From NCBI RefSeq assembly GCF_032337115.1, contig NZ_JAVXZY010000003.1, positions 211,959 through 275,958 on the forward strand: a DNA stretch of 64,000 nt, in the 5' to 3' direction. A program made the translations under genes and the position numbers. The stretch is from Roseateles aquae (GTDB lineage Bacteria; Pseudomonadota; Gammaproteobacteria; Burkholderiales; Burkholderiaceae_C). The notes beneath the pieces are model-generated. The model was given only the letters and a program-made list of their open reading frames with translations, was not told the origin of the DNA and ran no database searches. This document shows, one piece after another, positions 17,149-25,796 of this stretch. How positions within the stretch are numbered: the first letter of the stretch is position 1; every line of letters begins with the position of its first letter.

Positions 17149-18102
17149 CTACTCTGCCGCGGCCTCGCCCAGCAGTCGCAGCTGGGCAGGCGCCACGCCC
17201 AACACACGGCGCATCGCGCGGCGCAACCGTTCGCTATCGCCAAAGCCGCAGTCACGTGCCAGCTCTTGCAGTGAATGAACGCGCCCGGATGCCAGCGCGG
17301 CGCGCGCGGCCTCGACACGAAGGCGCTCAACCGCCTTGGCTGGCGTGGTGCCGGTTTCGGCGCTGAAGGCGCGGCTGAAATGGCGCGGGCTCATGCAGGC
17401 CCAGTCGGCCAGTTGTTCGACGCTGAGCGGCTCGCGCAGCGAGCGCCGCATGCGTTCCAGCAGCGCCGCGAAGCGCTCGCCCTGCAGTGCGGCCAGGGTC
17501 GAGAACTGCGATTGCCCACCCGGGCGCTGGTAGTAGACGACCAGCTCCTGCGCGACGCGACGCGCCAGCTCGGCGTCGCGGTCGCGGCTGAGCATGGCCA
17601 GGGCCAGGTCGATGCCGGCGCTGACGCCCGCGCTGCTCCAGATCTGGCCGTCCTGCACATGCAGGCTATTGGCCTCGAGCTGGACCTGCGGATGCTGACG
17701 TCGGAACTGCTCGACACGGCTCCAGTGGGTGCTGGCTCGCCGGCCATTGAGCAGCCCGGCCGCGGCCAGCAACAGGCTGCCCGAGCAGACGCTGGCAAGG
17801 CGCTTGTGCGCTGCGACAGCGCGCTGCAGCAGGCGCAGCAGCGCGGGGCGCTGGCAGGCCGCGTCGACCCCGCGGCCGCCAACGACCATCAAGGTGTCAA
17901 AGCTGTCCGTTCTCGGCAGCGCCTGCGCCTGCCAGGCGACGCCGGCCGAGCTGCGCACCAGGCCGGCCTGTTCGGCGACCACGCGCAGCTGGTAGGCGCC
18001 GGCCTCGTCAAACACGGACAGCGGCCCGGCGGCATCGAGCAGATGAAAGCCAGGGAAGATCAGCAGGGCAATACGGTGTTCGGCAGGCATGGCGAACATC
18101 AT
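17149..18102 (-). CDS. GlxA-family transcriptional regulator (DJ-1/PfpI domain + AraC HTH)
   Basis: The start was trimmed to MMFAMPAEHRIALLIFPGF. A DJ-1-like N-terminal domain precedes an AraC-type HTH in the C-terminal 100 aa (LSVEQLADWACMSPRHFSRAFSAETGTTPAKAVERLRVEAAR). It is divergent from a DJ-1/PfpI gene. Confidence 0.8.
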   Translation of the reverse strand: MMFAMPAEHRIALLIFPGFHLLDAAGPLSVFDEAGAYQLRVVAEQAGLVRSSAGVAWQAQALPRTDSFDTLMVVGGRGVDAACQRPALLRLLQRAVAAHKRLASVCSGSLLLAAAGLLNGRRASTHWSRVEQFRRQHPQVQLEANSLHVQDGQIWSSAGVSAGIDLALAMLSRDRDAELARRVAQELVVYYQRPGGQSQFSTLAALQGERFAALLERMRRSLREPLSVEQLADWACMSPRHFSRAFSAETGTTPAKAVERLRVEAARAALASGRVHSLQELARDCGFGDSERLRRAMRRVLGVAPAQLRLLGEAAAE

Positions 18103-18180: not shown

Positions 18181-18807
18181 ATGCCGATCGCCCAGCAGAG
18201 CAATAGCCGCAATGTCGCCATCCTGGTGTTCGACGAGGTCGAGGTGCTCGATTTCGCCGGCCCCTTCGAGGTCTTCTCGGTGGCCGGCAGCGAACTGCCC
18301 GCGGCGCCGTATGCGCCGTTCTTTCCCTATCTGATCGGTCTGAATACCCAGCCGGTGCAGGCGCGGGGCGGCTTTGTCGTGCAGCCACGCTATCGCTTCG
18401 ACGACGCACCGGCGCCCGATGTGCTGCTGATACCGGGCGGTAACGGCACGCGCCGGCTGCTCAAGCACCCGGCGCTCTTGCAATGGCTGCGCGAACAGGC
18501 AGCGCGTGTCGAGGTGCTGGCCAGCGTCTGCACCGGCGCACTGGTGCTGGGCGCGTCAGGCCTGCTGGACGGGCGCCGCGTCTGCACCCATCACCAGGCC
18601 TACGAGCGTCTGCGCGAGCTGGCCCCAGGCGCTCTGCCCCAAGAGGGCCGCCGCTTTGTGCAGGACGGTGCGCTGTGGACCTCCGGCGGCATTTCGGCTG
18701 GCATCGATATGTCGCTGGCCCTGGTGCAGGCGCTGGTCGGTGACACAGCGCCGGTGCGCGCGGAGATGGAATGGATGTGGGTGGATCAAGGAGACGCCGC
18801 AGCCTGA
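18181..18807 (+). CDS. DJ-1/PfpI family protein
   Basis: Motifs VAILVFDEVEVLDFAGPFEVF and the nucleophile elbow LASVCTGALVLGASGLLDGRRVCTHH. The start was trimmed to MPIAQQ at 18181. Confidence 0.8.
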   Translation: MPIAQQSNSRNVAILVFDEVEVLDFAGPFEVFSVAGSELPAAPYAPFFPYLIGLNTQPVQARGGFVVQPRYRFDDAPAPDVLLIPGGNGTRRLLKHPALLQWLREQAARVEVLASVCTGALVLGASGLLDGRRVCTHHQAYERLRELAPGALPQEGRRFVQDGALWTSGGISAGIDMSLALVQALVGDTAPVRAEMEWMWVDQGDAAA

Positions 18808-18981
18808 AGAGCGCGGCTTTCGTTGCTGTGCTTCAGCGCGGTCTGCCTGGCAAGGTGTTGAGCCTGATGCGCCTTGCCGTCAATCCCCATTTCTTACATC
18901 GTGATCGACCGCAACTGCGCTTGCCCTGACCCTGGGCCGCTCCCATAATCGCCCGCAATTCAACGGGGGGAGGTGCTGCCC

Positions 18982-19656
18982 ATGTTCAATATCGCCGGCA
19001 AGGCCTATGCGATGAATGTGATCACGCCGGTGCGACCGCGCCTGGCCTGGGTCAACAAGCTGATCTTCTGGTTCGCACTGAAATTTCCGTCCACGCTCAA
19101 GGGCCTGATCACGCTGTCGCTGATCCACTATGCGCGCTGGGTCATCATCGGCCGCGATCAGTTCCCGCATCTGTCGTCCGATCAGCCACGCGAGAAGCTG
19201 CGCTACAGCTACATGCTGTTCTTCAGCAACTTCAATGGCAGCTGGGATCAGTACGTCGATTCCTTCACCTTCTCCATCCCCAGCGGCCTGGACATGTTCT
19301 GGAAATGGAACATCCGCTACTCCAAATCGGTAGCGCTGACGCCCTTCCATCGCTACATCCAGTACAACCAGATCGAGACCCAGCATTACTACAACGCCTA
19401 TCCGCTGGCCGCCTCGAATGATGTGAAGAGCGCCAAGACGGTCAAGGACGCATTGATCGCCTTTGACGAAAAAGCCGACAAGGGCAGCGACGAAGAGTTC
19501 CAGAAGCGCTACCACACGCTGCTGCGTGGCCTGCAGCACGACCTCGGCGATATGTACCCGACGCCCATCGTCAGCATGGCGGCCTACCAGGTCGACCGGC
19601 GCAGCCACCATCTTCATCCGCAATCCCAGGGCATCAGCGACGGAGGGCAGGAATAA
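18982..19656 (+). CDS. Hypothetical protein, paralog A of a tandem pair upstream of a DyP peroxidase
   Basis: Starts at an ATG 10 nt after the RBS GGGGGAGG. Paralogous to the next gene (MFNIAGKAYAMNVITPV vs MGNISGNAYALTVLCPI, and YMLFFSNFNGSWDQYVDSF vs YLVFSCNFHGGPSANLDGY). No family was recognised. Confidence 0.6.
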   Translation: MFNIAGKAYAMNVITPVRPRLAWVNKLIFWFALKFPSTLKGLITLSLIHYARWVIIGRDQFPHLSSDQPREKLRYSYMLFFSNFNGSWDQYVDSFTFSIPSGLDMFWKWNIRYSKSVALTPFHRYIQYNQIETQHYYNAYPLAASNDVKSAKTVKDALIAFDEKADKGSDEEFQKRYHTLLRGLQHDLGDMYPTPIVSMAAYQVDRRSHHLHPQSQGISDGGQE

Positions 19657-20360
19657 TGGGAAACATCAGCGGCAATGCCTATGCACTCACGGTGCTGTGC
19701 CCGATCAAGGCCGGGCTGGCGCCGGGCCGTGAGATCGCCCGCGCCGATGCGGTGCGCGAAACCATTCAGGACTGGAACCTGCTGCCAAACAGCCCGATGA
19801 CGCTGGTGCCGCAGACCTATCTCTGCCGTTTCTTTGTGCTTGATGACGTCTACACCGAGTCGCTGCCCGGTGGCAGCGCGCTGGACACGCTGGCCGATTT
19901 CCTGCCGGTTACGCCCGATGCCATGCGGCGCCGCGCGATGCCGGCGCAGGACCGGCTGCAGTCACGCTACCTGGTGTTCTCCTGCAACTTCCACGGTGGG
20001 CCGTCGGCCAATCTGGACGGCTACCTGGCCGGCATGTGGAGCAATATCCGCGCCGAGATCGAGTCGGTCTGGCAGCACTGCTACGGTTTCGAGCAGGTGC
20101 ATGACGCCGCGGGCTTCGTCGCCTACATGAAGAAGTGCCAGCTGGAGACCACGCTGTTCTTCGTCGGCTCCAACGACGAGCCCTTGCCCGAGCAGCTCAA
20201 GGCCCTGTATTTGAAGCAGGAGCTGGCCAAGTTCGCCGTCGAGAACCAGGGCCTGGATGCTGCCACGCTGCGCGCCAACTACCGCGCCTTCATCCGCCGC
20301 GTGCAGCCGCGCGAGCTCGCCGGCCCGACCTGGGCGCCGGGCAAGTACCGCGTCGAGTGA
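19656..20360 (+). CDS. Hypothetical protein, paralog B (translationally coupled to paralog A)
   Basis: Its ATG overlaps the TAA stop of paralog A (TAATG). The coding GC3 signal is good and the similarity to paralog A is clear. Confidence 0.6.
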   Translation: MGNISGNAYALTVLCPIKAGLAPGREIARADAVRETIQDWNLLPNSPMTLVPQTYLCRFFVLDDVYTESLPGGSALDTLADFLPVTPDAMRRRAMPAQDRLQSRYLVFSCNFHGGPSANLDGYLAGMWSNIRAEIESVWQHCYGFEQVHDAAGFVAYMKKCQLETTLFFVGSNDEPLPEQLKALYLKQELAKFAVENQGLDAATLRANYRAFIRRVQPRELAGPTWAPGKYRVE

Positions 20361-20400
20361 GCAGACCCAAGAGCATCCATCTACCGGGAGCGAAGACACC

Positions 20401-22002
20401 ATGACCCAGCAACTGGATCTGCCGGATATCCAAGGCAATGTGATCCGCCCCTACGGCCGCTTCGGCTATCCGGTCGGGCGCTATGTGTTCTACAACATCA
20501 AGGACTCGACCCTGGGCCGGGCCTTCGTTGCCGCACTGACTGCCAGAGTGACCACCTCGGTCGACTGGGGGCCAGGGCCGGACCAACGCCCGCAGCCCGA
20601 CTGGACGCTGAACCTGGCCTTCAGCTACCAGGGGCTGAAGAACCTGGACCTGCCGGTGGCCTCGCTGATCGGCTTTTCGCCCGAGTTCGTGCAGGGCATG
20701 AAGGACAGGCATGACATCCTCGGCGACAACGGCCCCAGCGCGCCCGAGCACTGGGACCCGATCTGGCGCGAGAACCGCGAAATCCGCGAGCGCGATGTGC
20801 ACATCTTTGTGCAGATCAATGCCCGCACGCCGGCGCTGCGCGAGGCCGGCTACCAATGGCTGCAGGCGCGGGTGGCGCAGTACGCCGAGGGCGTGAGCCT
20901 GCTGTCAGGCCATCGCGCAGACGAAGGTGCGTTGATCGACTATCAAGACGTCGAGATCATCTTCGAGAACGGCAAGCCCACCTCCAAGGAGCATTTCGGC
21001 TATACCGATGGCATCGGCGACCCGGCCTTCGAAGGCATGCCCAATGCCCCCGACTACGTGCTGGGCCGCGGCAAGCAGATGGCCGATGGCAGCTGGGCGC
21101 CGCTGGCCACCGGCGAATTTCTGCTCGGCCATATCGACGAGGCGCAGGAATACCCGCCGGCGCCGGACCCGCAGCTGCTTTCGCGCAATGGCAGCTATAT
21201 GGTCTATCGCAAGCTGCATGAAAACGTCGCCAGCTTCGAGGCCTATCTGGACCAGCATGCCGAGGCCTATGCGCGCAGCTGTGGCCAACATGGCGCCAGC
21301 GCCGCTGAACGGCGCGAGCTGCTGGCGGCCAAGTTCGTCGGCCGCTGGCGCGACAACGGCGCACCGCTGGTCAAGGCGCACGATTTCGCGGCCAAAAAGG
21401 TCTTCGATGCCCAGCTGGCCGCGGCCAACGATGCCGAGCAGGACAAGCTGCTCAGCAACTGGACCTATGACGAAGACATGAGCGGTGGCAAATGCCCGTT
21501 CTCGTCCCATATCCGCCGCATCAACCCACGCGCCTCTCTGCAGATGATCCGTGACCCCGGCGACAAACCCGGCTCGCTGAAGGTCAGCACCGATGCCTTC
21601 GACACGCCCGGTGCACTGAGCAACCGCCGCCGCGTGCTGCGCCGCGGCCTGCCCTATGGCCGCGTCAAGGACCGCAGCCGCAACGACGGCAACCACGGCA
21701 TCGTCATCATGATGCTCAACGCTGACATCAACCGCCAGTTCGAATTCGTTCAGCAGCAGTGGATCAACTACGGCAACGACTTCAAGGCCGGCAACGACAA
21801 GGAAATCCTGCTCGGCAACCACAGCGTCGATGAACGCTACCCGAGCAAGGCGGTGCTGCAGGTTGAGCCCGACAGCGAACATGCGCCTTACTTCCTCAGC
21901 AAGATCCCCCGCCTGGTCGAAACCCGCGGCGGCGAGTACTTCTTCGTACCCAGCATGACGGCGCTGCGGATGATCGCGAAGGGGCTGATTGATCCGACGT
22001 GA
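20401..22002 (+). CDS. DyP-type (dye-decolorizing) haem peroxidase, long form (533 aa)
   Basis: DyP hallmarks are an N-terminal DIQGNVI, the GxxDG motif (FGYTDGIGDP), GSYMVYRKLHENV, a proximal-His region (CPFSSHIRRINPR), RRGLPYG, and the C-terminal NRQFEFVQQQWIN...RGGEYFFVPS. The start was trimmed to MTQQLDL at 20401. Confidence 0.8.
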   Translation: MTQQLDLPDIQGNVIRPYGRFGYPVGRYVFYNIKDSTLGRAFVAALTARVTTSVDWGPGPDQRPQPDWTLNLAFSYQGLKNLDLPVASLIGFSPEFVQGMKDRHDILGDNGPSAPEHWDPIWRENREIRERDVHIFVQINARTPALREAGYQWLQARVAQYAEGVSLLSGHRADEGALIDYQDVEIIFENGKPTSKEHFGYTDGIGDPAFEGMPNAPDYVLGRGKQMADGSWAPLATGEFLLGHIDEAQEYPPAPDPQLLSRNGSYMVYRKLHENVASFEAYLDQHAEAYARSCGQHGASAAERRELLAAKFVGRWRDNGAPLVKAHDFAAKKVFDAQLAAANDAEQDKLLSNWTYDEDMSGGKCPFSSHIRRINPRASLQMIRDPGDKPGSLKVSTDAFDTPGALSNRRRVLRRGLPYGRVKDRSRNDGNHGIVIMMLNADINRQFEFVQQQWINYGNDFKAGNDKEILLGNHSVDERYPSKAVLQVEPDSEHAPYFLSKIPRLVETRGGEYFFVPSMTALRMIAKGLIDPT

Positions 22003-22062
22003 GGCTGTCTGTCATTGGGCACTGCCGGGCCGCGCCGCCATGGCTGTGATCGCGCGTCAAGC

Positions 22063-22542
22063 ATGAGTCTGTTCCTGTCTGCTTGCAAAGACGCCTTCCT
22101 GAATATGTGGGAAGGGCGGAGTGTGTTTGAGTTGCGCGCGGCCAGACGCGCTGCCATCGTCGCTGCAAGCCCTTGTCGGATTGCTGCCGCTGGGCTGCTC
22201 TGGCCCGCGACCGAAACGGTCGACGCCGCCCTCGTTGATCCAGCGACGCGATTTCCCCACACGGCGCAAGCCCATCACGGGATCGCGGACAGCCTGCGCT
22301 GCGCCGCTGATGTCGTCTGGCTTTCTGTGTCCGCGGGCGAAGCCCGACGTTACTTGGATGCCTGTGAGGGCGTCGACCTTGCGATCGAGCGCCTCAAGAC
22401 TTGCTTTGCCAAGCTGGAGGCGATCTTCATCGAAGATGACTTCCTCAGTGACTGGGAAATTGCGCGGATCGCTGCAAGCGTGGCTCCCATTCGTCTGGAA
22501 TGGCGACAGGGGCTTTGCGTCGATGGCCGGTATGGGCGTTAG
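22063..22542 (+). CDS. Hypothetical protein (atypical codon usage, low confidence)
   Basis: 159-aa ORF in a locally lower-GC stretch with many A/T-ending codons, unlike neighbouring genes. No family was recognised. Its stop lies directly against the left palindromic repeat. Confidence 0.3.
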   Translation: MSLFLSACKDAFLNMWEGRSVFELRAARRAAIVAASPCRIAAAGLLWPATETVDAALVDPATRFPHTAQAHHGIADSLRCAADVVWLSVSAGEARRYLDACEGVDLAIERLKTCFAKLEAIFIEDDFLSDWEIARIAASVAPIRLEWRQGLCVDGRYGR

Positions 22543-22545
22543 TTT

Positions 22546-22654
22546 CGTAGGGCGGGTCATTAGACCCGCGCTGCGCCCTAGCAAATAGCTGGTCAGTGAC
22601 GTGCTATTGAAAAAGGCGGGTTACGCCTTTGGCTAACCCGGCCTACGTGGCTCG
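22546..22654. repeat. Composite palindromic repeat, copy 1 (hairpin GCGGGTC-N3-GACCCGC plus hairpin GGCGGGTTACGCC...GGCTAACCCGGCC), ends CGTAGGG...CCTACG
   Basis: About 85% identical to a second copy at 24605-24738. The two copies are in direct orientation and bracket a two-gene segment. Confidence 0.7.
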
Positions 22655-22659
22655 ATGAC

Positions 22660-23313
22660 TCAGACCGTCTCGACCTGCCTGTCCAGCTTTTGCTGCGCCC
22701 AGTAGCCGAAGTTCACGCTGATGTTCTCGTCCAGATTGGCCAGGTCCGCGGCCTGCTGGCTGAACAGCTCCATCATCTGCCCGAGCAGATTGAACTGCTC
22801 TTCGGTCCATTTGGACATGGTGTTCGGCTCGCCGAGGTCGCGCTGGTGTTGCAGCAGGCTGGCCCAGCTTTGTGCCCATTGCTGCAGCAGCTGCTGGCTC
22901 TGCTGGCGGCTGGCTTGCTGCAGTGCGTTCAGCTCGTCCAGCGTCTGCAAGGGTTGGGTGTTCCAGCTCCAGACGGAGGCGGCGAGCACCGCGTTGTCGC
23001 GGCTGCGCTGGACCCAGGCCGCCCAGGGGCGCAGACCGCGCAGCGGCAGCTTGATGTGGACGCTGGCCCAGTCGGCCCAGTTCGGCAGCTCGGCAGTGTC
23101 GGCCTGCGCGATGCCAGTTGGCGACAGCAGCGCGGGCAGCTGCCTCCCGGCTGGCAGCGACACAAGGGCGTGGGAACTGGCCTCGTCATCAACCTCGGTG
23201 AGCGATTCGGATGAGTGCCAGTCGCCACTCTCGGGAGCGGTCTCGTCGATGTCTTCAAAGTCGGTTGAGTGGGTCGAATGGGCCGTGCTGCTGCGGCGTT
23301 TGGACGTGGACAT
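22660..23313 (-). CDS. Hypothetical Gln/Trp-rich protein (possibly PHA-granule associated)
   Basis: Starts at an ATG (MSTSKRR) 7 nt after a GGAG RBS. Acidic N-terminus and Q/W-rich C-terminus. Co-directional with and downstream of the PHB-depolymerase-family gene. Function is a guess. Confidence 0.45.
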   Translation of the reverse strand: MSTSKRRSSTAHSTHSTDFEDIDETAPESGDWHSSESLTEVDDEASSHALVSLPAGRQLPALLSPTGIAQADTAELPNWADWASVHIKLPLRGLRPWAAWVQRSRDNAVLAASVWSWNTQPLQTLDELNALQQASRQQSQQLLQQWAQSWASLLQHQRDLGEPNTMSKWTEEQFNLLGQMMELFSQQAADLANLDENISVNFGYWAQQKLDRQVETV

Positions 23314-23382
23314 GAGCTTCTCCAATCAAAAGGGGGGTGAGGAACCAGTCTGTCGATCAGCGTGCTGCCAGCGCTCAGGCGC

Positions 23383-24456
23383 TCAGGCGCCCAGGCAGCT
23401 GAGCATGTCGTGGATCGCCTTGATCTGCACGGCCTGCTGCGAGAAGTAGTCAGGGGCCCTGGCGTCGGCGGCGCTATAGCCCCACCAGTCCCAGCAACCA
23501 TCGGGGTTCTGGGCCTTGTTGTTGTCGCGCCCCTCGGCCTGGGGATAGAGCACGATCAGATGGTTGCTGTCTGCCATCTGGTTGTAGCCGGTGCTGGTGA
23601 CGTAGCGGGTGCCGTAGGGGGGCTGATTGGCCTTGTCGAGGCGGCCGTAGAGAAAGTCGGTATAGGCGTAGCCCTGCTTGCAGCCGTGCAGCGCGATATG
23701 CACGCGCGCTGGCGCGCCGTCGAGCACGGCCTGCGGGATGTAGATATAGCCCAAGCGGCTCATGCTGGCGCGGTCGCGGTCGCCAATGAAGGGGCTTTGA
23801 TCGAAGCGCAGCAGCTGGCCGGTGAGCCGCTCGGCCGGAGCTTGGAGGTCGGGATAGAGATGGCGCAGGATGTCGTGCGATTGCATGAAGCCGCCGTTGT
23901 TCAGGTAGGGCGGGCAGTTCTGCGACAGCTCGGAATCCTCGGGGTTGCTGGTGATCAGCGAATGCCCGGCCGGCACATTGTCCACATAGGCCAGGCGCTC
24001 GCCGCTGATGCCCAGCGCCTCGTAGAAGGCGCGGGTCTGCGCCACCACCAGCGGATGCACGACCTGATCGCGGCTGCCGGTGAACAGGTAGACACGCTGG
24101 GACGCCAGATGGCTGAGCGGGTCGATCAGCCGGTCGGCCTCGGCCTCGCGGGCCAGCTGCAGGCAGCGCCGGGCGCTGGGTGCCGTGCTCTCGGTCAGCG
24201 GTGCCATGCCGATCTGCATGGCGGTGAGGATGCAGGCATCCTCGGCCAGCGGCGCCGCAGCCGGAAACAACTCGGCGCAGCGATACGGCCCGCCGGCGAC
24301 GATGCCGGCGCCAACGAAGCTGGCCGAGTGCGCAAGGTGCAGCTGCACCGTCATGAAGGCGCCCGAGGACAGGCCGGAGACCGAGCTTTGCCCGCGCTCC
24401 ACCTTGAGCTTGAGGGTGGACAGATCGAGCACCTCGGACGAAGAAAATGCTGTCAT
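23383..24456 (-). CDS. PHB-depolymerase-family esterase (alpha/beta hydrolase)
   Basis: C-terminal motifs LHGCKQGY, NHLIVLYPQAEG and NPDGCWDWWGY are typical of the esterase/PHB depolymerase family. The start was trimmed to MTAFSSS and there is no signal peptide. Confidence 0.7.
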   Translation of the reverse strand: MTAFSSSEVLDLSTLKLKVERGQSSVSGLSSGAFMTVQLHLAHSASFVGAGIVAGGPYRCAELFPAAAPLAEDACILTAMQIGMAPLTESTAPSARRCLQLAREAEADRLIDPLSHLASQRVYLFTGSRDQVVHPLVVAQTRAFYEALGISGERLAYVDNVPAGHSLITSNPEDSELSQNCPPYLNNGGFMQSHDILRHLYPDLQAPAERLTGQLLRFDQSPFIGDRDRASMSRLGYIYIPQAVLDGAPARVHIALHGCKQGYAYTDFLYGRLDKANQPPYGTRYVTSTGYNQMADSNHLIVLYPQAEGRDNNKAQNPDGCWDWWGYSAADARAPDYFSQQAVQIKAIHDMLSCLGA

Positions 24457-24604
24457 ACACCGCTCCTTGCGCGATGGAATCGAAGCGAAGCGAATCGAAG
24501 CAAGGTCAGGCCTTGGAGACCCAGGGCAGCTGCTTCGTACTGGAGCGTATGGTGGACTGCGAGACTTGTCGTTTTGATGACGCCGCAATGACGCGGCTAC
24601 GCAG

Positions 24605-24738
24605 TAGGGCGGGTCAATCGACCCGCGCGGCACCTTTGGCTCGGCTACTGTTCGTCACAAGGGCTTCCGACGCGTACCGGTAAATGACGTGCCGTTGGGG
24701 AAGGCGGGTTACGCCGTTGGCTAACCCGGCCTACGCCG
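24605..24738. repeat. Composite palindromic repeat, copy 2
   Basis: Shares GTAGGGCGGGTCA(AT)CGACCCGCGC and ...GACGTGCCGTTGGGGAAGGCGGGTTACGCCGTTGGCTAACCCGGCCTACG with copy 1. The middle section is longer. Confidence 0.7.
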
Positions 24739-24779: not shown

Positions 24780-25796
24780 TCAGATCGTCCAGTCCACCGG
24801 CTCCCGCCGCGGCACGCCGTTCTGCGCATGCCTGAAGGTCGAGATCGCCGCATAGACGATCTTGCGGGCGCGGTTGATGCCGCCCAGCGGCCGGTGTTCA
24901 GGCAGGCTGTGCCAGGGCGTGAAGGACAGGTTCTCGCCGAACACGCGCTGGGCCGGGCTGTCGAACTGCTGGGCCGGGATGCGGATGGCGGCCACTTTGC
25001 GAAACGTCGATAGCGCCTCCGGCCACTCGATGCTGGGGTCTTCGATCGGCATGGCGGCGGCATCGGTCTGCAGCTGCACGGCGAAGTCGTAGACCACCTC
25101 CTTGCGGGCCAGCTGGCGGACCATGGCCTCGCGCAGATAGTCGTCGCCAGGTGAATCGGGAATCGTGTCGGTGGCGGGCGCGCGCGGGATGGCCGAGTAC
25201 TTGACGGCCCGCGTGCCCAGCAGATACGGCGTGGTGCTCCAGTAGCGCAGCTGCAGCGGATTGGCATGTTTCTTCATCGAGCGCAGCAGATTGCCGGCCA
25301 CATGCCAGTGGGTCAAAAAGAAGCAGAGCTTGGCCCACAGGCTGCCGGTCAAGGCCTTGATCAAATCGTCGAACTCCTCGACATCGCGGGTCACGAAAAC
25401 CGGCGTGCTGATGACGATGAAATCCTGCGTGCGCTCCTGCCGCTCGGCCTCCAGCAGCTTGTCGCCGGGCACGCCCATCAGCTTGATGGCCATGCCGCGG
25501 ATATCGGCGTTGATGTCGGGCTGAATCGTGCCATCCTGGTTGGAAAAACGTATCCAGGCCGGGTAGGTCTTGCCGGGCTCGGCGAACACGCCAATGCGCA
25601 GTTCTTCCGGCAGATCGGGTTCGACGATGAACTCGGCGCGCACCAGCCCGTGCATCTTGGGATGGGCATCGCGGCGCATCGGGCCGCCGGCGTTGTCGCG
25701 AACGATCTTGGCCTGCAGGCGCGCCGCCAGATCGTTGATGCACTGGGCTTCATTGGCGGGTGGAGATTCCAGCGCGGAGAGTTTGCTATCGCTCAT
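24780..25796 (-). CDS. Catalase-related haem protein (small catalase-like peroxidase/allene-oxide-synthase-like family)
   Basis: Distal-His region RRDAHPKMHGLVRAEF as in catalase-core proteins, in a 338-aa protein that is too short for a true catalase. The start was trimmed to MSDSKLS. Confidence 0.55.
   Translation of the reverse strand: MSDSKLSALESPPANEAQCINDLAARLQAKIVRDNAGGPMRRDAHPKMHGLVRAEFIVEPDLPEELRIGVFAEPGKTYPAWIRFSNQDGTIQPDINADIRGMAIKLMGVPGDKLLEAERQERTQDFIVISTPVFVTRDVEEFDDLIKALTGSLWAKLCFFLTHWHVAGNLLRSMKKHANPLQLRYWSTTPYLLGTRAVKYSAIPRAPATDTIPDSPGDDYLREAMVRQLARKEVVYDFAVQLQTDAAAMPIEDPSIEWPEALSTFRKVAAIRIPAQQFDSPAQRVFGENLSFTPWHSLPEHRPLGGINRARKIVYAAISTFRHAQNGVPRREPVDWTI

What the first reader, a model, noticed from the sequence alone, without database searches (positions are those of the whole stretch)
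18982..22002. Operon of two tandem paralogous unknown proteins translationally coupled upstream of a long DyP-type haem peroxidase
The two paralogs (224 and 234 aa) share about 25-30% identity with each other, which I aligned by eye (N-termini MFNIAGKAYAMNVITPV vs MGNISGNAYALTVLCPI, and YMLFFSNFNGSWDQYVDSF vs YLVFSCNFHGGPSANLDGYL). Paralog B's ATG overlaps paralog A's stop (TAATG), and the DyP gene starts 40 nt after B. I could not place the paralogs in any family I know, and they do not resemble DyP partners such as encapsulins or EfeUO. Their N-termini weakly echo the DIQGN-type N-terminus of DyP enzymes, so they may be divergent haem-free members of the DyP/chlorite-dismutase structural superfamily. 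If so, they could act as substrate-delivery or scaffold partners of the peroxidase, a possible new DyP accessory module. The DyP itself is unusually long, at 533 aa.
Basis: partly seen in the sequence, partly recalled or inferred. Interest (0 to 1): 0.7.

Follow-up and report, generated by a model that had tools for sequence, protein, structure and literature searches.

The report
Unannotated protein pair partnering DyP peroxidases
Two neighbouring genes of unknown function belong to a large, unannotated protein family that sits next to, or is fused to, one class of haem peroxidase in many bacterial phyla, which gives a concrete lead to what these poorly understood peroxidases do in the cell.

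Summary
A (18982-19656, 224 aa), B (19656-20360, 234 aa; its ATG overlaps A's TAA) and a 533-aa class V DyP (20401-22002) form a tight operon in Paucibacter sp. APW11.

A and B are true but distant paralogs: 20% identity, not 25-30%, and hhalign probability 95%. They have no Pfam, NCBIfam, PADLOC, PHROGs or PDB sequence match. Their family has at least 2,074 clusters at 50% identity.

The order A-B-DyP is kept in every locus with enough sequence (80 of 87). The trio or a fused A-B next to a DyP recurs in Acidobacteria and unassigned metagenome contigs, and a single family member sits beside the DyP in Alphaproteobacteria, Actinobacteria and Cyanobacteria. Single-chain A-B, A-B-DyP and catalase-A-B fusions exist.

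A small catalase-related haem protein (24780-25796, minus strand) is a fourth linked gene. In other lineages a special P450 plus a GST-like protein takes its place. Patatin-like lipases occur in two lineages.

The model of B has an ABM-like dimeric alpha+beta-barrel core. No specific relationship to DyP or chlorite dismutase was detectable.

Best reading: A and B form a haem-free heterodimer that works with the DyP and the catalase-like protein on a shared substrate, possibly a lipid-derived peroxide. The genetic link is well supported. The chemistry is inferred.

The parts
18921..18949 (+). Sigma-70-like promoter candidate (TTGCCC-17-CATAAT), 33 nt upstream of gene A
   Evidence: Consensus scan only. 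The upstream regions of six orthologous loci share no conserved motif, and Rfam finds nothing.
18982..19656 (+). Gene A (224 aa), the A-type member of the unannotated A/B family and the most conserved gene of the module
   Evidence: ORF and start codon. It has 2,045 homologs at 90% clustering, all named 'hypothetical'. Median identity to the window protein across 79 species loci is 74%, against 64% for the DyP. There is no Pfam, NCBIfam, PADLOC, PHROGs or PDB match.
19656..20360 (+). Gene B (234 aa), the B-type paralog, with a start codon overlapping A's stop
20401..22002 (+). Class V (former C/D-type) DyP haem peroxidase, 533 aa, with no signal peptide evident
   Evidence: Pfam DyP_N at 1.6e-7 and Dyp_perox_C at 4.9e-4; TIGR01413 scores 88 bits, below its cut-off. 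The nearest solved structure is Deinococcus DrDyP (8re3), E 2.6e-36. FGYTDGIGDP, SSHIRRINPR and LRRGLPYG align with the matching DrDyP segments and are invariant in six orthologs.
24780..25796 (-). Small catalase-related haem protein (338 aa from MSDSKLS), the fourth, genetically linked component
   Evidence: Pfam Catalase scores 30.9 bits, above the 25-bit cut-off. The nearest PDB entry is 3e4w, E 4.7e-6. Orthologs at 48-77% identity lie just downstream of the DyP in 40 loci, usually convergent. It is 43% identical over 361 aa to the catalase domain of a catalase-A-B fusion protein, P0386.

Best explanation
A and B are anciently duplicated members of a large, so far unannotated protein family. 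The core of the family is a ferredoxin-like dimeric alpha+beta barrel of the ABM type, followed by a helical C-terminal extension.

The two genes are translationally coupled. Their products most likely assemble 1:1 into an A-B heterodimer, the split equivalent of the single-chain A-B proteins found in other bacteria.

This haem-free pair is a dedicated partner of a clade of cytoplasmic class V DyP peroxidases and of a small catalase-related haem protein. The partnership is shown by comparative genomics.

How the pair works is inferred. It probably binds or transforms, without a cofactor, the same small hydrophobic molecule that the haem enzymes oxidise or rearrange. The molecule is most plausibly an organic, possibly lipid-derived, hydroperoxide or its precursor or product. 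The pair would act just before or after the DyP, possibly as a bound subunit.

My confidence is about 0.8 that A and B are obligate functional partners of the DyP. It is about 0.6 that they form a heteromer. It is about 0.25-0.3 that the chemistry concerns lipid or organic hydroperoxides.
For: Shown:
- A-B-DyP lie on one strand in all 80 of 87 loci that have enough sequence. The other 7 are cut by contig ends or, in one case, carry a split B gene.
- The flanking genes differ between lineages, so the trio travels as a unit.
- The gap from A's stop to B's start has a median of -4 nt, and the genes overlap in 50 of 80 loci. The median gap from B to the DyP is 18 nt.
- The trio recurs with very distant family members: a marine metagenome contig (L007), Acidobacteria (L088), and the cultured Granulicella tundricola plasmid pACIX901 (L095).
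- All 8 sampled plasmid loci carrying a DyP only 30-32% identical to this one have a single A/B-family ORF adjacent, with E from 6e-9 to 1e-26. They come from Sinorhizobium, Nostoc, Streptomyces, Rhodococcus, Paracoccus, Sphingomonas, Methylobacterium and Rhizobium.
- Fusion proteins exist: many 360-460 aa tandem proteins with an A-like N-terminal domain (37 of 43) and a B-like C-terminal domain (24 of 43, 12 ambiguous); three A-B-DyP triple fusions of 860-964 aa; and a catalase-A-B and an A-B-catalase fusion.
- The catalase-related gene follows the DyP in 40 of 80 species loci. It is also present in the Rhodococcus, Paracoccus, Sphingomonas, Methylobacterium and Rhizobium clusters.

Supporting the inferred chemistry:
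- The fold of B is ABM-like.
- Both paralogs keep the family-wide Arg52/58, Tyr77/105, Asn83/111, Trp107/139 and Tyr125/157 (A/B numbering).
- A dedicated P450 clade plus a GST-like protein replaces the catalase-related gene in 12 proteobacterial loci and in Acidobacteria. The two neighbour types are mutually exclusive among the 80 species loci.
- These P450s lack the I-helix acidic residue, and no redox-partner gene is seen in the clusters.
- Patatin-like phospholipases, once together with an acyl-CoA thioesterase, follow the DyP in two unrelated lineages.
- From established knowledge: catalase-related haem proteins of the coral allene-oxide-synthase and MAP_2744c type act on organic and fatty-acid hydroperoxides rather than on H2O2.
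Against: - No biochemical data exist for any member of the family.
- No heterodimer prediction could be run.
- The associated P450s resemble ordinary actinobacterial CYP105, CYP107 and CYP113-type enzymes. They do not resemble CYP74 or CYP152.
- Patatin is present in only 2 of about 100 loci, and none lies in this window.
- No lipoxygenase or other obvious source of hydroperoxide is in the clusters.
- The A/B domain also occurs without a DyP: in a prophage-like region (L093) and fused to a STAND NTPase (P0329). It is therefore not exclusively a peroxidase partner.
Confidence: 0.6

Rival explanations
1. One reading: A and B are divergent, haem-free relatives of the DyP/chlorite-dismutase lineage itself. 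They act as passive scaffold or substrate-delivery subunits of the peroxidase.
For: B has a ferredoxin-like dimeric alpha+beta-barrel core, the fold class to which DyP and chlorite-dismutase domains also belong. A plus B, or the fused A-B proteins, mimic the two-domain build of a DyP. The fusions to DyP suggest physical association.
Confidence: 0.2
2. A-B is a haem-handling protein, either an IsdG/HmoB-like haem binder or degrader or a chaperone, that loads or recycles haem for the two haem enzymes of the module.
Against: No histidine is conserved across the family. B has no invariant His, and the near-invariant family columns are Pro, Arg, Tyr, Gly and Tyr. Covalent fusion of a chaperone to its client in a fixed 1:1 ratio is atypical. 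The hosts already have standard haem pathways.
Confidence: 0.12
3. A-B is a cofactor-independent oxidase or oxygenase. Its job is to generate the peroxide, either H2O2 or a substrate hydroperoxide, that the DyP consumes. It would be a built-in peroxide supply, not a partner acting on the DyP's product.
For: The fold is ABM-like, and known ABM enzymes oxygenate activated substrates without a cofactor (the enzymology is from established knowledge). The gene order A-B-DyP is strict. No other peroxide-generating enzyme is in the clusters.
Against: No Pfam ABM match. Cofactor-free oxygenases need easily deprotonated aromatic substrates, and no biosynthetic genes for such substrates are nearby. The presence of a catalase-like protein argues as much for peroxide removal as for peroxide supply.
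Confidence: 0.15
4. The A/B domain is a small-molecule sensor or regulatory domain that switches partner proteins on or off. It would not be an enzyme of the pathway.
For: The domain is fused to the C-terminus of an nSTAND1 NTPase (P0329). It occurs in a 661-aa protein in a prophage-like region with no DyP. DrDyP, the closest solved relative, is reported inactive at physiological pH with low-spin haem, which leaves room for an activating partner (PMC10820274).
Against: Such contexts are rare next to the hundreds of DyP-linked cases. The pairing of two distinct paralogs and their very high conservation point to a defined structural or enzymatic role.
Confidence: 0.1

Closest known systems
ABM-type dimeric alpha+beta-barrel proteins (ActVA-Orf6, YgiN, IsdG/MhuD, rhamnose/fucose mutarotases, and tandem forms such as AbxO 9ltx and WhiE-ORFI 9lmn)
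   Different: There is no sequence or Pfam relationship. Each A/B domain is about 200-230 aa, against about 100 aa, with an extra C-terminal helical part and, in B, a roughly 40-residue insertion. A/B are obligately linked to DyP genes, which is not known for ABM proteins.
Known DyP partner systems: encapsulin nanocompartments (class P cargo DyPs) and EfeUOB/FepABC iron-uptake operons (class I, Tat-exported EfeB)
   Same: A DyP is encoded in a small operon with dedicated non-peroxidase partners.
   Different: The DyP class differs (class V, cytoplasmic, no Tat signal seen). No encapsulin shell gene and no EfeU or EfeO gene appears in any of the annotated neighbourhoods. The 2021 DyP review lists only EfeUOB/FepABC, encapsulin and Cu-related contexts (PMC8197335).
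Deinococcus radiodurans DR_A0145 (DrDyP, PDB 8re2/8re3) with its neighbour DR_A0146 (a catalase-like protein without catalase activity)
   Same: DrDyP is the closest solved structure to the window's DyP (E 2.6e-36). It is a class V/C DyP encoded next to a catalase-like gene (PMC6300522), the same pairing as in 40 of the 80 species loci here.
   Different: DrDyP is about 90 residues shorter. Whether an A/B-family gene lies beside DR_A0145 could not be checked with the collections available.
Oxylipin pathways that pair a fatty-acid dioxygenase with a catalase-related or CYP74 P450 hydroperoxide-converting enzyme (coral AOS-LOX, plant LOX-CYP74)
   Same: A catalase-related haem protein and a P450 occur as mutually exclusive alternatives in the same pathway slot. 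Patatin-type lipases that could release fatty acids are present in two lineages. The P450s have no redox-partner gene nearby and lack the I-helix acidic residue.
   Different: There is no lipoxygenase. The P450s are not CYP74-like by sequence. A DyP and the A/B pair have no counterpart in known oxylipin pathways. The analogy is a hypothesis, not a classification.

Membership tests
DyP-type peroxidase, class V (third gene) | Match to DyP family models and homology with solved class V (C/D) DyPs over both domains | tested here: met
   PF21105 scores 32 bits (cut-off 27.5) and PF20628 scores 20.3 bits (cut-off 20). TIGR01413 scores 88 bits, below its 100.5 cut-off. Matches to 8re3, 7anv, 5c2i, 4g2c and fungal DyPs range from E 2.6e-36 to about 1e-14.
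DyP-type peroxidase, class V (third gene) | Catalytic residues: the Asp of the GXXDG motif, the proximal His and the distal Arg | tested here: met
   FGYTDGIGDP (D203), SSHIRRINPR (H370) and RRGLPYG (R414/R415) align with the corresponding DrDyP segments. They are invariant in six orthologs. Which residue does what follows from family knowledge and PMC10820274.
DyP-type peroxidase, class V (third gene) | Haem b binding and peroxidase activity | not testable with these tools
   Needs expressed protein. The closest solved homolog, DrDyP, is reported inactive at physiological pH (PMC10820274).
DyP/chlorite-dismutase structural superfamily (proposed for A and B) | Ferredoxin-like dimeric alpha+beta-barrel fold | tested here: inconclusive
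DyP/chlorite-dismutase structural superfamily (proposed for A and B) | Detectable sequence or profile homology, or closest structural neighbours, among DyP, chlorite-dismutase or EfeB proteins | tested here: not met
DyP/chlorite-dismutase structural superfamily (proposed for A and B) | Conserved haem ligand (proximal His) | tested here: not met
   No His is conserved across the family. B has no invariant His, and the near-invariant family columns are P16, R52, Y77, G86 and Y125. This agrees with 'haem-free' but gives no positive tie to the lineage.
ABM (antibiotic biosynthesis monooxygenase) family | Match to the Pfam ABM model and a domain of about 100 residues | tested here: not met
   No Pfam match at E<=1 for A or B, and no family shared among 78 relatives at E<=0.1. 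The domains are 200-230 aa. Only the fold is shared.
Encapsulin cargo or EfeUOB-type DyP systems | An adjacent encapsulin shell gene, or EfeU/EfeO genes with a Tat-exported DyP | tested here: not met
   None of the annotated neighbourhoods contains such genes. The DyP begins MTQQLDLPDIQGN with no twin-arginine leader.
Small catalase-related haem proteins (MAP_2744c / coral allene-oxide-synthase type) (fourth gene) | Homology with the catalase core in a protein of about 320-370 aa that lacks the C-terminal catalase domains | tested here: met
   PF00199 scores 30.9 bits, above the 25-bit cut-off, over residues 43-149. 3e4w matches at E 4.7e-6 over residues 74-262. The protein is 338 aa. Its activity on organic hydroperoxides was not testable.

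The most novel reading that the evidence does not exclude
The A-B pair is the missing oxygen-activating or hydroperoxide-rearranging enzyme of a bacterial lipid-oxidation (oxylipin-type) pathway that works without a lipoxygenase. A patatin or thioesterase would release a fatty acid. A-B, cofactor-free, and the class V DyP would make or convert its hydroperoxide. A catalase-related protein or a redox-partner-less P450 would finish the conversion. That would give bacterial class V DyPs a defined physiological substrate for the first time.
Probability: 0.12. Interest if true: 0.9.

Novelty: new variant of a known kind. Interest (0 to 1): 0.7.

Why it matters
The natural substrates and cellular roles of bacterial DyPs remain unclear, and the authors of the DrDyP study call class C 'unexplored' (PMC10820274). 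These enzymes are usually studied alone, with dyes or lignin models as substrates.

This work shows that a large clade of these enzymes never travels alone. The DyP comes with an unannotated two-protein (or fused) partner family. It usually also comes with a catalase-like protein or a P450, and sometimes with lipases.

This turns 'what do these peroxidases do?' into a testable question. The partners can be co-expressed and the operon can be knocked out in tractable hosts such as Granulicella tundricola, Paracoccus yeei, Sphingomonas sp. AAP5 and Undibacterium.

It also defines a new domain family of more than 2,000 sequence clusters that deserves a database entry. It may further explain why isolated class V DyPs such as DrDyP look inactive.

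Tried and rejected
- **Sequence link between A/B and DyP.** hhalign of the A, B and 78-member family profiles against a 6-sequence and a 10-sequence DyP alignment gave nothing.
- **Foldseek of the B model against the PDB.** No significant hits. The AFDB library was not available.
- **Oxylipin-type P450s.** The idea that the associated P450s are CYP74- or CYP152-type enzymes was rejected by sequence. Their nearest PDB relatives are CYP105, CYP107 and CYP113-type enzymes.
- **Conserved upstream element or riboswitch.** None found in an alignment of six upstream regions or in Rfam.
- **Anti-phage defence or phage-family membership.** No PADLOC or PHROGs hit for A, B or the fused forms.
- **Conserved regulator.** The AraC/DJ-1 genes upstream in the window do not recur elsewhere.
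- **Literature.** Searches for this module found nothing.
- **Tool limits.** Exact look-up of the window's own A protein in the contig index failed.
Full report
**1. The observation**

The window comes from Paucibacter sp. APW11: A and B are identical to RQP53_09860 and RQP53_09865.
- A runs 18982-19656 (224 aa). Its ATG is preceded by GGGGGGAGG, and all homologs begin MSNIAGK or MFNIAGK.
- B runs 19656-20360 (234 aa). The junction reads GAATAATGG, so B's ATG shares its A with A's TAA.
- The DyP runs 20401-22002 (533 aa). Its ATG lies 40 nt after B's TGA, and five orthologs start at the same MT..LDL residues.

A and B are genuine paralogs, but more distant than stated. BLASTP gives 20% identity with E 2e-5. 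The family profiles match with hhalign probability 95% and E 3.7e-8. A joint alignment of 28 sequences is collinear from end to end, with 11 invariant columns: G6, Y9, R52, L73, Y77, F80, N83, W107, F122, Y125 and F161 in A numbering.

**2. No known family**

Neither protein matches any Pfam or NCBIfam model, even at E<=1. Neither matches any PDB sequence, PADLOC or PHROGs. None of 78 diverse relatives shares a Pfam family: the only matches are 15 isolated single-member hits at E>=0.005. A family profile finds nothing in the PDB. Every source name seen is 'hypothetical protein'.

The family is nevertheless large. A profile of A plus B finds 2,074 clusters at 50% identity with E<=1e-3, and 997 with E<=1e-10.

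**3. The third gene**

It is a canonical class V (former C/D) DyP. It matches DyP_N and Dyp_perox_C weakly. Its best solved relative is the Deinococcus radiodurans DrDyP, 8re3, at E 2.6e-36. After that come an ancestral D-type DyP, Anabaena AnaPX, Amycolatopsis DyP2 and fungal DyPs.

The GXXDG aspartate (FGYTDGIGDP), the proximal histidine (SSHIRRINPR) and the distal arginine (RRGLPYG) all align with DrDyP. They are invariant among orthologs. The 533-aa length, against 442-493 aa for the solved enzymes, comes from several loop insertions and not from an extra domain. No signal peptide is evident.

**4. Conservation of the arrangement**

The 80 best loci were kept. They come from Undibacterium, Herminiimonas, Oxalicibacterium, Polaromonas, Ramlibacter, Ideonella, Nitrosomonas, Methylococcaceae, Thiodictyon and others.

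Together with seven loci fetched earlier, 80 of 87 show A, B and DyP in that order on one strand. The other seven are cut by contig ends or, in one case, have a frameshifted B. Flanking genes differ completely between lineages.

The genes are tightly spaced. The median gap from A's stop to B's start is -4 nt, with overlap in 50 of 80 loci. The median gap from B to the DyP is 18 nt. A is the most conserved gene of the three: median identity to the window proteins is 74% for A, 60% for B and 64% for the DyP. GC3 is like that of the host genome, so nothing points to recent import.

**5. Distant lineages and fusions**

The trio recurs with family members that share only about 20-40% identity:
- a marine metagenome contig, with proteins of 204 and 197 aa followed by a 469-aa DyP;
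- an acidobacterial contig, with 198 and 207 aa followed by a 462-aa DyP;
- the plasmid pACIX901 of the cultured Granulicella tundricola, genes ACIX9_RS19085, RS19090 and RS19095.

Eight plasmid loci were sampled whose DyP is only 30-32% identical to this one. All eight carry one A/B-family ORF directly beside the DyP, with E from 6e-9 to 1e-26. The hosts are Sinorhizobium, Nostoc, Streptomyces, Rhodococcus, Paracoccus, Sphingomonas, Methylobacterium and Rhizobium.

Many relatives are single chains of 360-460 aa with two copies of the domain. The N-terminal copy scores as A-like in 37 of 43 cases. The C-terminal copy scores as B-like in 24 of 43, with 12 ambiguous. These proteins are A-B fusions in gene order.

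Three clusters of 860-964 aa are A-B-DyP triple fusions. Two others join the pair to a catalase-like domain in either order. One of them, P0386, is itself followed by a DyP gene.

Together, the fusions and the invariant adjacency are the strongest kind of genomic evidence that A, B and the DyP work together. They also indicate that A and B act as a 1:1 pair.

**6. A fourth component**

Clustering the flanking ORFs showed that 37 loci carry the same protein of about 340-365 aa immediately after the DyP, usually convergent. A direct search raised this to 40 of the species loci, at 48-77% identity to a window ORF.

That ORF lies at 24780-25796 on the minus strand and is 338 aa from MSDSKLS. It is a small catalase-related haem protein. 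Pfam Catalase scores 30.9 bits, above the cut-off. The nearest solved structure is 3e4w.

In this window it is separated from the DyP by an unassigned 221-aa ORF and a type-2 short-chain PHA depolymerase. It is 43% identical over 361 aa to the catalase domain of the catalase-A-B fusion.

'Catalase family' genes also sit in the Rhodococcus, Paracoccus, Sphingomonas, Methylobacterium and Rhizobium clusters. [quoted passage not shown]

**7. Other recurrent neighbours**

In 12 proteobacterial loci (Methylococcaceae and Nitrosomonas) and in Acidobacteria, a P450 and a GST-like protein take the place of the catalase-related gene. Among the 80 species loci the two sets never overlap.

These P450s form their own clade. 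They are 53% identical between Methylococcaceae and Acidobacteria, and 26% identical to a third lineage. They lack the acidic residue of the I-helix acid-alcohol pair (GAIPTT, AWVTSV), and no redox-partner gene is nearby. By sequence, however, they resemble ordinary CYP105, CYP107 and CYP113-type enzymes, not CYP74 or CYP152.

A patatin-like phospholipase follows DyP-P450 in one lineage. In Sphingomonas sp. AAP5, an acyl-CoA thioesterase and a patatin-like phospholipase follow the DyP.

**8. Fold**

- fucose and rhamnose mutarotases;
- ABM monooxygenases;
- TcmI;
- IsdG and MhuD.

**9. Interpretation**

Shown:
- the operon;
- the paralogy;
- the absence of any annotation;
- the universal linkage to class V DyPs;
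- the A-B and A-B-DyP fusions;
- the linkage to catalase-related proteins.

Inferred:
- A and B form a haem-free heterodimeric barrel;
- the pair binds or transforms, without a cofactor, a small hydrophobic molecule shared with the haem enzymes;
- the residues conserved in both paralogs (Arg, Tyr, Asn, Trp, Tyr) line the ligand pocket.

By recollection, not by test, this set of residues resembles the pocket residues of ActVA-Orf6-type ABM enzymes.

The accessory genes are the catalase-related protein or a partner-less P450, the GST-like protein, patatin and the thioesterase. They point most plausibly to organic, possibly lipid-derived, hydroperoxides. This rests on context alone, and patatin is rare.

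Rival readings are set out separately:
- true DyP/chlorite-dismutase relatives acting as a scaffold;
- haem handling;
- peroxide supply;
- a sensor domain.

None is excluded, and the first is weakened by the negative profile comparisons. The domain also occurs fused to a STAND NTPase and in a prophage-like region without a DyP. Its role is therefore not restricted to peroxidases.

**10. Novelty**

The literature searched lists only EfeUOB/FepABC, encapsulin and copper-related contexts for DyPs (PMC8197335). It states that physiological roles and substrates remain unclear, and it calls class C 'unexplored' (PMC10820274). Four other searches found no description of this module.

The fold class is known and peroxidase operons with accessory genes are known. 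I therefore rate this a new variant of a known kind: a new protein family and a new DyP partnership. It is of solid interest because it makes the function of class V bacterial DyPs experimentally approachable.

Noticed in passing
window 24780-25796 (-), and 22015-24633: The catalase-related gene that normally abuts the DyP is displaced here by about 2.8 kb. The intervening DNA holds an unassigned 221-aa ORF (22660-23325, minus strand), a type-2 extracellular short-chain PHA depolymerase (23383-24633, minus strand; NF050059, 344 bits) and an unassigned stretch at 22015-22584. Five other loci (L054, L058, L059, L066, L073) also have the catalase-like gene 2-3 kb away.
   Followed up: partly
L030 9338-11389 (-); L088 5870-6658 (-) and 9630-10916 (+); L090 6463-7719 (+): A dedicated P450 clade, usually with a GST-like protein, accompanies the A-B-DyP module in Methylococcaceae, Nitrosomonas, Acidobacteria and one more lineage. 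Among the 80 species loci it never co-occurs with the catalase-related gene. These P450s lack the I-helix acidic residue and have no redox-partner gene nearby.
   Followed up: partly
L090 7716-9407 (+); L101 5331-6928 (+): A patatin-like phospholipase gene is packed directly behind the DyP (or DyP-P450) in two unrelated lineages. In Sphingomonas sp. AAP5 p213 an acyl-CoA thioesterase sits between the DyP and the patatin gene. This hints at a lipid substrate.
   Followed up: partly
P0329 (719 aa); L093 7001-8986 (+): The A/B domain also occurs at the C-terminus of an nSTAND1 NTPase. A 661-aa protein with two copies lies in a prophage-like region (tail-fibre, Amidase_2 and HTH genes) with no DyP nearby. 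A further class of 560-660 aa proteins carries an unassigned C-terminal extension of 200-300 residues.
   Followed up: no
window 17149-18099 (-) and 18181-18807 (+): Immediately upstream of gene A lie an FtrA/GlxA-like AraC regulator with a DJ-1 domain and, divergently, a stand-alone DJ-1/PfpI family protein. This pair does not recur beside the module in other genomes, so it is probably unrelated or a local regulator.
   Followed up: partly
L096 7359-7682 (+) and 7746-8267 (+): In the Sinorhizobium chiapasense plasmid, the DyP is followed by a NIPSNAP family protein, another protein of the dimeric alpha+beta-barrel fold. After that comes a second, very weak A/B-family ORF (E 7e-5). A hemA gene lies about 1.1 kb upstream of the first A/B-family gene.
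   Followed up: no
P0044 (269 aa, from the eukprot source): A Trinity transcript from a eukaryotic transcriptome is 77% identical to A. This is most likely bacterial contamination of that data set, not a eukaryotic homolog.
   Followed up: no
window 24780-25796 (-), residues about 130-140 of the protein: Read by eye, the catalase-related protein keeps the distal-His motif (RRDAHPK) and a C-terminal R...Y motif. It has ...VISTPVF... where typical catalases have ...GNNTPVF..., so the catalytic Asn may be replaced. That would fit the lack of catalase activity reported for the Deinococcus homolog. It was not verified by alignment to a solved catalase.
   Followed up: no
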